Shown: positions 5,430 to 19,876 of the stretch, one piece after another
Position numbering within the stretch: position 1 is the stretch's first letter
Layout of the letters: every line of letters starts with the position of its first letter
Assembly: GCF_006345805.1 (NCBI RefSeq)
Contig: NW_021835005.1
Span: 1-43,463 of the forward strand
Direction: 5' to 3'
DNA: 43,463 nucleotides
From: Octopus sinensis
Taxonomy: Eukaryota
Made by a program: the position numbers and the translations under genes
The notes under the pieces: generated by a model
What the model saw: the letters and a program-made list of their open reading frames with translations, nothing else
What the model was told of the DNA's origin: nothing
Databases searched by the model: none

Positions 5430-5810
5430 GTTTTGATTTCTATCTACAGGAATATTTTCCCTGATGAGACGAATGGGTCCCTTAAGAGGTCCATAACGTC
5501 GAAATTGCAATAGGGAATTAGCCAATTATTTTCAAGTTATAGATACTAATTTCTATGTCAACCGAAAAGAGTTTTTATCGTGTGGAGAAATAATATGAGT
5601 GATATAACAGCTTTATTGCGGTTTTGGCTGCTATTTTTAAAATGTAAGGGTCTTTTTAACCCTCTTCGTTATAATTGTGACTTGTTCATAATCATAAACG
5701 TTTTTCTTCTTTGTATTTTATGATAACATGTTTTGCCACTTGGCATATTCATAAATAATCTTCATTATCTATAATATATCATCCGTAACGTTTATACATT
5801 ACTTTCCACT
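5430..5810 (+). mobile_element. HHR-bearing repeat, probable PLE pLTR
   Basis: About 290 bp homologous to 17375-17646, contains a hammerhead, and runs into (TA)n at about 5810. Confidence 0.7.
5456..5517 (+). ncRNA. Type I hammerhead ribozyme, canonical core
   Basis: Stem I tttcc/gggaa; CUGAUGA 5461-5467; stem II GACG/CGUC; GAAA 5501-5504; palindromic stem III AUUGCAAU; AUA triplet with predicted cleavage after 5512. Confidence 0.88.
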
Positions 5811-5901
5811 TATATATATATATATAATATATATATATATATAGATATATATACATATATATATATATATATGTATGGATATATGTGTATATATATATGT
5901 G

Positions 5902-16164: not shown

Positions 16165-16374
16165 CAGGAGAAAGAAGGGACTGAGAAAGATGAAAAGTCA
16201 GAAAGAAGGGGAGAGGAAGAGGAGTATATATATATATAATATATATATATATGCACACACACAACACACATATATATGTAAGTAGAGAGTAATATAGAAA
16301 CATTACGAAGGATATATTATAAATAATTAAGATTATTTATGAATATATCAATGGCCAAACATGTTATAAAATAT
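16165..16374. repeat. About 200-bp direct repeat of 16997-17195
   Basis: gactgagaaagatgaaaagtcagaaagaagggg...catgttataaaatat occurs at both places. Confidence 0.9.
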
Positions 16375-17005: not shown

Positions 17006-17194
17006 GAGAAAAGCATAGAGAGACTGAGAAAGATGAAAAGTCAGAAAGAAGGGGAGAGGAAGAGGAGTATATATATGCACACACACAACACACATATATA
17101 TCTAAGTAGAGAGTAATATAGAAACATTACGAAGGATATATTATAAATAAAGATTATTTATGAATATATCAATGGCCAAACATGTTATAAAATA

Positions 17195-17646
17195 TAAAGA
17201 AGTAAAACGTTTATAATTATGAACAAGCCAGAATTATAACTAAGAGGGTGGTCTCGAGATTTTCGCATAAATGCTGTGCATGGCATTTGAATTCAAAACT
17301 TGATTGTGTAGATAGAGGTTGAAACATTTCTATTGCCAGTCGGGATTCATGCTATCCCTCAAGGTAAAGTCTTCTTTTGATTTCTATCTATCGTATTATT
17401 CCTCCTGACGAGGCGAATGGGTCCCTTAAGTGGTCCCCAACGCCGAAATAGCAATAGGGAACTCACCAATTATTTTCAAATTGTGGATTCTAATTTCCAC
17501 GTTGCTCGAGGACAGTTTTTATCGTGAGGAGAATTGATATGAATAAATAATGGTTTTATAGTGTTTTTGGTTACATGTAAGGTTTTTTTTAACCCTCTTA
17601 GATATAATTGTGACTTGTTCTTAATTATAAACGTTTTTCTTCTTCA
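17195..17646 (+). mobile_element. HHR-bearing PLE-like relic with short inverted 5' arm
   Basis: 17195-17249 is the reverse complement of 17592-17646. The body is homologous to 5430-5720 and ends at (TA)n. Confidence 0.75.
17400..17461 (+). ncRNA. Type I hammerhead ribozyme, paralogue of 5456-5517
   Basis: CUGACGA 17405-17411; stem II GGCG/CGCC; GAAA 17445-17448; stem III AUAGCAAU (one mismatch from the palindrome); AUA triplet; gggaa. Confidence 0.8.
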
Positions 17647-17661
17647 TATGTGTATATGTAT

Positions 17662-17705
<44 letters not shown>

Positions 17706-18559
17706 TGGTAAAAACGGCAAGATAGCAAAAGAAAGAAAGAGACCTCAATATTACGTAAATAGAGGAAATTTATCTATAAAATAATATGTTACAATTACTC
17801 AATAGTCAAGATAAAACCGCTATATAAAGGGAAATTACTGTGTTATAATTCTGCTACTTATATAAAATAAGATTAAAAGTTCATAGTAAACACGTAAACA
17901 TGGCTAGTCATACGCTCACATATGCGCTCGCGGTCCCACGTGCGTACTTATACGTCACTATGAAAACGTACACATCTTCACTCGCATTTTTCGCCAAATA
18001 TATGCGCATATATATACAAACTCATACACACACACACACGCGTACCGTAAAAGTTCATACATACGTCTATATACGCATAAGCACAAGAAAAACCATGGTT
18101 AAAGGTAACAGAAAAAACATAAGGAAGTATACAAAGCATAAAAACCACGTTCATATACGGACATGCCCTCATATGCACTCATACACACACACACGCCCAT
18201 ATATGTACATATCTGCACATGTTTATATACGCATACACACACACGCATATACAAAAAATGAATATACATATGCTCCCCCCCAAAAAAAATCCCCATAAAA
18301 AATGGAAAAATACTAAGTAAAAACGTCTATATATATATATATATATGCATTCTTATGCCATCACACACGCACATCTAAAACTGTCCACTCATACATATTC
18401 ACACACGTGAATCTATATACACGTCTATATAGGCACAGAAAAAATGCAGGATAGAAGAGTATAAAAAAATTATTATGTGTGAAAATATAAAAATATATGA
18501 AATAATAAAAGGTATAATGAGATAAAAAACTTTTTGGGACGTAATATAGAAAGCAAGTT

Positions 18560-19429
18560 CTATCTGTTTTCTTTAGGGGACCAAAAACGTAACAAATATT
18601 TTGTCACATGTGGGCATGATCCGAAAAGTTCTGTCCTTGATTTTAGACATGTAGGAGGATCTAAGCTGCTTTTCCAGATAAGCCATCTCTCCATGTCGCA
18701 TAGACCGCACTTTCCGCTGCCGTTGGTGTAGGGCTTACATTTGGCCAAAATCTTCCATTTGGCCAAAATATTCGATACCTTTATCTTTTAAAGACCAAAT
18801 ATGATTAGATAATTTTGTCGCTTTTCTTTTGCTCCAGTGCCTAAAACTCAAGGTGTGGTTATTGAACCTGGCCTTGAAATTACCCTCTGTAAGGCCCACG
18901 TATTTCTTCGTCGAAACGGTGTCTTTAGTGGTTATAGAGTCCACGGTAGCTTCATAGATGATGGTCTTGGACATGCAAGCTCCATTTAGCGGGCACAATT
19001 TTTTATTCCTGCATGAACAGCTGTTTTCTTGTTGTGGTTTTTGTGTGTTATGTGTGATTATATTTTTAAAATTGGTAGTTGAACTAAAACTAATTTTTAA
19101 ATTGTGGTTATTGAAGAGTTTCCTATAAGTATGATTAACTGGAAAATGTCTATCTATCAGTGTTAAGAAATATTTACCTATATTGAAGGTCACCTCGGGT
19201 GAGTAAGGGGGTGTAAACCAGATGATCTTCCTATTTCTATTTTCCTCTTCTTTACTGTTGGGCTAGTAACAGGTGTATATTTTATTTTTTCGCTAAAACC
19301 ACTATCTTTTAAAGCCTTATTATAAACTGGGGCAACGCTATTAAAAATGTCCTTATCGGAGGAGAGGCTAGGAATTCTCTTACTAATATTTTTAACTAAA
19401 TGTTTGAATACTATAGGAGGGATGACCAT
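18560..19429 (-). pseudogene. Frameshifted PLE ORF: RT thumb, linker and GIY-YIG endonuclease
   Basis: Three ORF pieces join: IPPIVFKHL...ALKDSG; (IIWFTPPYS) NIGKYFLTLIDRHFP; CSCRNKKLC (CxCx5C); IIYEATV...KYVGLTEGNFKARFNNH (GIY-YIG); CGLC; CPH. Confidence 0.9.
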
Positions 19430-19722
19430 TGTACTAGACTAGTAGCGGTCTTAATTTTCGCATTTATTTTATCAAAATATGTGTGTATGAATTTGTATAT
19501 ATATGCGTATATATTTGGCGAAAAATGAGAGTGAAGATGTGTACGTTTTCATAGTGACGTATAAGTACGCACGTGGGTCCGCGTGCGCATATGTGAGCGT
19601 ATGACTAGCCATGTTTACGTATTTACTATGAACTTTTAATCTTATTTTACTTAAGTAGCAGAATTATAACACAGTAATTTCCCTTTATATAACGGTATTT
19701 TTTCATAGCGTTTTTCAGATGG

Positions 19723-19789
19723 CCAGATAACCGAAGAGATGGTGTTGTGGATTTCCACTTCGGCATCTGAAACTCAGAGTTTTATCTTG
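19723..19789 (+). ncRNA. Hammerhead motif in the inverted pLTR (core variant)
   Basis: Stem I agataa/ttatct; CCGAAGA (U4C); stem II GAUG/CAUC with inner gtgga/tccac; extra U before GAAA 19769-19772; stem III ACUC-A-GAGU; GUU triplet. Confidence 0.72.
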
Positions 19790-19812
19790 ACTATTGAGTA
19801 ATTGTAACATAT

Positions 19813-19876
<64 letters not shown>

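What the first reader, a model, noticed from the sequence alone, without database searches (positions are those of the whole stretch)
17776..19820. Ribozyme missing from the sense pLTR, with a breakpoint at about the cleavage site
Seen: the two inverted arms match closely, except that the sense arm (junction at about 17816) lacks about 84 bp equal to 19697-19780, which holds the HHR 5' stem I strand, core and stems II-III. The deletion ends within about 1-2 nt of the predicted scissile bond (after 19781), with only a gt microhomology. Inference: possibly a fossil of reverse transcriptase running off a self-cleaved RNA end and jumping templates, directly linking HHR cleavage to PLE integration.
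Basis: partly seen in the sequence, partly recalled or inferred. Interest (0 to 1): 0.75.

Follow-up and report, generated by a model that had tools for sequence, protein, structure and literature searches.

The report
Ribozyme deleted from one Penelope copy
One copy of an abundant Penelope-type jumping gene lacks 84 bases holding most of its hammerhead (self-cutting RNA) motif, likely through an ordinary short-homology skip on uncut sequence; across the family most shortened copies begin at the motif's front edge, and a smaller excess begins at its predicted cut site.

Summary
The 84-nt deletion is real but single: 1 of 240 copies with both flanking anchors. Its 3' end lies 1-3 nt 5' of the predicted scissile bond and keeps T19781, a base a cleaved RNA would not carry; a GT microhomology explains it, and another copy uses the same GT from a different start (L139). 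The proposed family test gave a mixed result. The main pile-up of 5' breakpoints is at 19717-19720, the ribozyme's front edge (21 of 51). At the cut site there is a twofold excess in the sister subfamily (25 of 84 against 11.7 expected), a weaker one in this subfamily, and none in older subfamilies, including those with the canonical core (4 of 48). Two seamless head-to-head fusions sit exactly on the cut. Verdict: this locus is most likely an ordinary skip (about 0.7); run-off from cleaved RNA here about 0.12; occasional in vivo cleavage in the family about 0.3. Earlier scan notes report both patterns in other genomes. Reads could not confirm the locus.

The parts
17650..17701 (.). (TA)n tract at the 3' end of the insertion (target microsatellite)
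   Evidence: sequence
17704..17767 (-). optional 3' 'tail' of the element, present in the left arm and absent from the right arm; outer end approximate
   Evidence: many copies carry it, others end at the 19820-19828 equivalent
17768..17817 (-). 3' pLTR downstream of the deletion (= 19779-19828), keeps the 3' strand of stem I
17815..17818 (-). deletion junction, GT microhomology; 84 nt missing
   Evidence: 1 of 240 copies
17818..18032 (-). 3' pLTR upstream of the deletion (= 19480-19694)
18033..19479 (-). 5'-truncated body: broken 3' end of the ORF (Cys-rich linker, GIY-YIG-like end; longest open frame 18735-19262) and 3' UTR
   Evidence: Pfam GIY-YIG E=0.013, 16.2 bits, below the 22.6 cut-off
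19480..19828 (+). inverted 5' arm: second pLTR copy, intact ribozyme motif, no tail
19695..19780 (+). segment missing from the left arm (84 nt, three placements)
19717..19720 (+). main family-wide 5' breakpoint cluster, at TCAG|ATGG just before stem I; inferred RNA 5' end
   Evidence: 21 of 51 breaks in 4 of 37 positions; p 2e-8 against uniform, no microhomology correction
19725..19787 (+). type I hammerhead motif with variant core (U4C, G10.1-U11.1, GUU triplet); predicted bond 19781/19782
   Evidence: C at position 4 in 54 of 57 young and 60 of 61 sister copies; canonical in 6 of 6 old-b copies
19820..19873 (.). (TA)n tract at the other end of the insertion
   Evidence: sequence

Best explanation
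One copy of a multi-thousand-copy Penelope-like element has lost 84 bases of its 3' terminal repeat, likely by a single skip between two GT dinucleotides on uncut sequence, and not by copying a self-cleaved RNA. Shown: the deletion, its rarity, the retained base 5' of the predicted bond, and other small deletions ending in the same few bases. Inferred: the reverse transcriptase, starting in the tail and moving 3' to 5' on the RNA, slowed on entering the folded ribozyme region (19772-19787), let go, and re-annealed 84 nt upstream by the GT match; repair of a later DNA break by the same microhomology gives the same product and cannot be told apart here. Inferred for the family: most short copies end where the copied RNA begins (19717-19720), 60 nt upstream of the bond, so uncut RNA is the usual template.
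For: 1 of 240 copies with both anchors has a gap of this size. The right end can be no further 3' than 19781. 2-3 nt microhomologies are about threefold enriched among this family's junctions. L139 is a 37-nt deletion from 19742 into the same GT, keeping the same bases, L408 nearly so. Direct deletions end at 19777-82 in 7 of 15 independent cases with ends in 19764-99 (my tally, leaving out this locus and one found only by the site-directed pattern; window chosen after seeing the data; p 0.007), and most keep bases 5' of the bond. Deletions of 37-89 nt elsewhere in the pLTR occur in DNA contigs (8 joints listed). 21 of 51 breaks lie at 19717-20, against 3 rows (2 independent) of 28 at 19781-83 on roughly the same genome span (anchors differ). 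Older subfamilies show no excess at the bond: 4 of 48, 7.1 expected; 1 of 22 in the group tied to the canonical core. In the Anolis PLE, ribozyme mutants still insert in vitro and no RNA-seq ends were found at the site (PMC11167929, parts 1-2 of 4 read).
Against: There is a real excess of 5' breakpoints at 19781-83 in the sister subfamily: 25 of 84 against 11.7 under a microhomology-weighted null, the best of 28 three-base windows (p 1e-4). This subfamily shows 13 independent breaks at 19778-84 against 6.4-7.6 (p 0.03-0.07). The only two fold-backs of 23 with no loop, insertion or microhomology are both centred on 19781/19782 (L250, L318). An untemplated A in the cDNA is a common RT habit (own knowledge) and would supply the missing base. 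U4C ribozymes can keep enough activity in vivo (PMC3088659, one passage read). Stalling at the fold is not measured.
Confidence: 0.7

Rival explanations
1. The RT ran off the 5' end of a ribozyme-cleaved RNA at 19782, added one untemplated base and jumped to another template at 19696.
For: End within 1-3 nt of the bond; twofold family excess at 19781-83; two seamless palindromes on the bond; the same logic explains R2 5' junctions (PMC3774820, abstract).
Against: Needs an added base, a chance GT match, and an acceptor 85 nt short of the 5' fragment's end; L139 repeats the GT end with the same retained bases; the core is U4C, G-U, GUU and the ribozyme fold costs about 12 kcal/mol against the MFE as a monomer (-11.5 vs -23.6); no excess in older subfamilies.
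Confidence: 0.12
2. The segment was removed as a spliceosomal intron before reverse transcription (PLE pLTRs carry introns).
For: The segment starts at a donor-like G|GTATTT and two AGs lie at 19776-79; in D. virilis Penelope an intron ends at helix I (PMC4209133, parts 1-2 read).
Against: No placement is GT..AG; either AG needs an extra indel; 1 of 240 copies; the known intron lies upstream of the ribozyme, not across it.
Confidence: 0.04
3. Assembly or consensus error in an inverted repeat on a small unplaced contig.
For: The window is a whole 43-kb contig; no independent read evidence for the junction was obtainable.
Against: Clean junction with 2-nt microhomology, like other copies' junctions; flanking arm sequence is closer to the family majority than the right arm is.
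Confidence: 0.07
4. Family-level rival for the 19781-83 excess only: it comes from sequence and structure, not cutting (TAT matches to TA-repeat targets, stem I self-complementarity, an alternative 19772-19799 hairpin whose loop is 19782-88).
For: 13 of the 25 excess-window breaks are called at 19783, mostly with microhomology running to 19785-89; junctions whose interval covers 19782 are 12 against 6.1 (p 0.02) and 14 against 12.5 in the pooled set; the hairpin is in the MFE fold.
Against: The excess survives the microhomology-weighted null; the comparable TA sink at 19792 shows none (5 vs 5.5); seamless palindromes are not explained. My test of hairpin strength by subfamily failed (mostly picked the inverted arm).
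Confidence: 0.5

Closest known systems
Endonuclease-bearing Penelope-like elements (Penelope/Poseidon, Neptune, Nematis); insertion unit as in PMC8557442 (passages read)
   Same: pLTR with hammerhead, adjacent inverted 5'-truncated copy, optional tail, (TA)n targets, C-terminal GIY-YIG-like end; a Cys-rich linker before it points to Neptune/Nematis type (inferred, no tree built)
   Different: this copy's sense pLTR lacks the ribozyme; tail about 65 nt rather than 30-40; RT domain not present in this copy and not sought
PLE hammerheads, D. virilis-like variant (PMC4209133, parts 1-2 of 4 read)
   Same: type I motif in the pLTR, bulged base in helix II, short helix III, AG-ending pyrimidine tract just before helix I
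   Different: young subfamilies carry U4C, G10.1-U11.1 and GUU throughout; activity untested
PAc Poseidon of Anolis (PMC11167929, parts 1-2 of 4 read)
   Same: two 3' ends defining a tail; most insertions appear to come from uncut RNA
   Different: here a twofold excess of genomic 5' ends at the predicted bond in one subfamily; that paper found no RNA ends there
R2 HDV-like ribozyme setting the element's 5' junction (PMC3774820, abstract only)
   Different: in R2 cleavage defines the normal 5' end; here at most a small minority of copies, and this junction is an internal deletion

Membership tests
EN+ Penelope-like element | pLTR with adjacent inverted 5'-truncated copy | tested here: met
EN+ Penelope-like element | optional tail at one end | tested here: met
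EN+ Penelope-like element | C-terminal GIY-YIG endonuclease | tested here: inconclusive
   Pfam PF01541 E=0.013, below cut-off, on a broken frame
EN+ Penelope-like element | telomerase-like RT domain; clade by phylogeny | not tested
   copy is 5'-truncated; no full-length copy was fetched
Type I hammerhead ribozyme | three helices round the core, conserved with variation across copies | tested here: met
   helices kept across four subfamily groups; judged from example rows, no formal covariation count
Type I hammerhead ribozyme | canonical core CUGANGA, G10.1-C11.1, GAAA | tested here: not met
   this copy and 54 of 57 young, 60 of 61 sister copies have U4C; U at 11.1 in 56 of 57 and 60 of 61; met in 6 of 6 old-b
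Type I hammerhead ribozyme | self-cleavage | not testable with these tools
   needs an assay
Run-off and jump from a ribozyme-cleaved RNA (R2-like) | junction begins at the first base of the 3' cleavage product | tested here: not met
   begins 1-3 nt earlier; rescuable only with an untemplated base
Run-off and jump from a ribozyme-cleaved RNA (R2-like) | family 5' ends pile up at the bond | tested here: inconclusive
   twofold in sister, weak in young, none in old subfamilies; main peak elsewhere
Spliceosomal intron loss | GT..AG ends, recurrence among copies | tested here: not met

The most novel reading that the evidence does not exclude
A minority of this family's insertions were copied from RNA that its hammerhead had already cut in vivo, even with a U4C/G-U/GUU core: the twofold excess of 5' ends at 19781-83 and two seamless head-to-head fusions centred on the scissile bond are genomic fossils of PLE ribozyme activity, and this deletion may be one of them (about 0.12 for the locus itself).
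Probability: 0.3. Interest if true: 0.6.

Novelty: new member of a known kind. Interest (0 to 1): 0.33.

Why it matters
The role of PLE hammerheads is open: the papers read call it unclear (PMC8557442) and show insertion without cleavage in vitro (PMC11167929). One deletion cannot settle it, but the family profile is a cheap in vivo readout. It says uncut RNA starting just before the ribozyme is the usual template, and leaves a small, testable signal at the bond. If that signal is cleavage, it would be genomic evidence that PLE hammerheads cut in animals and that cut RNA is sometimes integrated. I found no such profile in print in three searches on PLE or retrotransposon ribozymes (listings only for most hits; the library lacks most subscription papers; supplements not read).

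Tried and rejected
Rfam scan: no hammerhead family hit, only microsatellite noise. Repeat finder swamped by microsatellites. Splicing: rejected on boundaries and recurrence. Two-step deletion through the nearby TAGCG/GTTTT repeats: needs two deletions and an insertion, less parsimonious than one substitution plus one deletion (by inspection). Reads: only assembled contigs were offered, no RNA holder on record; in four DNA-type runs no listed piece bridges 17817/17818 and in four guessed-RNA runs no joint skips the segment; the tool states such blanks prove nothing, so neither is used as evidence. First null had an edge artefact at 19764 and a biased de-duplication of the old-subfamily set; replaced. 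One search produced nothing (no headers). Hairpin stability by subfamily mostly grabbed the inverted arm and is not used. The neighbouring canonical-core family (about 80% identity between copies) was too diverged for the exact-anchor test, so that replicate was not done. Samples: 58 of 58 rows analysed, 100 of 297, 100 of 116, 55 matches from the first part of 287, rows past the 30th picked by eye as non-intact, 54 of 524. Rows breaking outside each window were dropped before counts. The null used a sister-subfamily reference for all groups in 19766-95.

Full report
Setting. The window is a whole 43,463-base contig of a 2.7-Gb, microsatellite-rich animal genome. At 17704-19828 lies a 5'-truncated Penelope-like element between two (TA)n tracts. 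Reading on the minus strand it has the broken end of an ORF with a Cys-rich linker and a weak GIY-YIG match, a 3' UTR, and a 3' pLTR with tail; an inverted second pLTR copy, without tail, sits at 19480-19828. The HHR region has 2118 first-look candidates in the genome.

Observation. Confirmed. The left arm equals the right arm minus 84 nt, placeable at 19695-19778, 19696-19779 or 19697-19780 because GT stands on both sides. The arms differ at 9 of 215 upstream positions, all private to one arm or the other, so the insertion has had time to change.

The ribozyme. On the plus strand: stem I 19725-30 with 19782-87, core 19731-37, stem II with a bulged base, GAAA 19769-72, a three-pair stem III, triplet 19779-81. 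Older subfamilies have the canonical core (6 of 6 old-b copies with U4 and C11.1, 1 of 6 with GUC), which fixes the predicted bond at 19781/19782. The young and sister subfamilies carry U4C (54 of 57, 60 of 61), U at 11.1 (56 of 57, 60 of 61) and GUU (all). U4C lowers activity in vitro but sufficed for a viroid in vivo (PMC3088659, one passage). As a monomer the ribozyme fold is -11.5 against an MFE of -23.6 kcal/mol.

Is the deletion recurrent? No. With exact anchors on both sides, 1 copy has a gap of 0-30 nt, this one, and 239 have 31-110 nt. That also counts against splicing, as do the ends, none of which is GT..AG.

The junction. A cleaved RNA would begin at 19782. The left arm keeps at least T19781. 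The cleavage model needs one untemplated base, a coincidental GT, and a landing point 85 nt inside the 5' fragment. The uncut model needs only a 2-nt microhomology, a class about threefold enriched in this family's junctions. L139 deletes 19742-19778 into the same GT and keeps the same bases; L408 is similar. Of 15 independent direct deletions ending in 19764-99, 7 end at 19777-82 (my tally; window chosen after the fact; p 0.007), and most keep bases 5' of the bond, so they passed through uncut sequence. This suggests, without showing, that copying falters at the 3' edge of the folded region. My rough weighing gives 0.12 for cleavage at this locus.

The family test. I collected broken copies with patterns that demand an exact downstream anchor and mismatches upstream, fetched them and called breakpoints by script. 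In the young subfamily 46 breaks in 19734-84 are spread broadly. A pattern aimed at 19778-84 found 15, 13 independent of this locus and a duplicate, against 6.4-7.6 expected (p 0.03-0.07). In the sister subfamily 25 of 84 breaks are called at 19781-83 against 11.7 under a microhomology-weighted null (p 1e-4, best of 28 windows); 13 of them are at 19783, a natural sink for TA-rich flanks, and only 12 intervals cover 19782 (6.1 expected, p 0.02). A tail-anchored set gave 9 of 41 against 6.3 (p 0.17). Older subfamilies gave 4 of 48 against 7.1; a twofold excess would be unlikely there (p 0.0002), including the group tied to the canonical core (1 of 22), the opposite of what cutting predicts, though that sample was partly hand-picked and the null used another subfamily's sequence. 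Among 23 short fold-backs, the only two with no loop, insertion or microhomology are centred exactly on 19781/19782 (L250, L318), and two more are centred 2 nt away with a TA overlap; this is the best evidence for a discrete end at the bond.

The larger signal is elsewhere. Of 54 analysed matches of 524, 51 break in 19696-19732 and 21 of these at 19717-20, against 3 rows at 19781-83 on about the same genome span. Some of the 21 are fold-backs at the natural TGGCCA palindrome, and no microhomology correction was applied. The site is TCAG|ATGG, which reads both as an initiator-like motif (recalled) and as a splice acceptor; Penelope has its start site and an intron in the pLTR, the intron ending at helix I (PMC8557442 passages; PMC4209133). 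I infer it is the usual RNA 5' end. Earlier scan notes on other genomes report this front-edge pattern and, in one, an excess at the cut in two of four families; they prompted.

Reads. Only assembled contigs were available; they neither confirm nor deny the junction, nor show splicing.

Verdict. A real, single, most likely ordinary microhomology deletion in a known kind of element.

Noticed in passing
window 17405-17460 (+) and 5461-5515 (+): Two copies of another, older hammerhead-bearing repeat family with a canonical core; 104 candidates, about 80% identity, canonical pattern matched in 13 of 30 loci; inverted arms 17136-17249 / 17592-17701. The element studied here sits beside it in the (TA)n tract.
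   Followed up: partly
window 16999-16960 (-): A third, compact hammerhead motif with canonical core and a four-pair stem II; related pieces at 16176-16374 and 5659-5821.
   Followed up: no
equivalent of 19584-19656: A 73-nt deletion upstream of the ribozyme shared by at least six loci and seen in DNA and guessed-RNA contigs; not GT..AG; a propagated sub-lineage.
   Followed up: partly
L250/L251 and L318: Perfect head-to-head palindromes with no microhomology centred on the predicted scissile bond.
   Followed up: partly
L237, L331, L344 (equivalent of 19774-19787): The same 11-nt deletion removing stem III and the cleavage triplet in three older copies: inherited or recurrent.
   Followed up: no
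family-wide, 19732 and 19768: The ribozyme core drifts from canonical in old copies to U4C and G-U in the young, abundant subfamilies, which kept spreading.
   Followed up: partly
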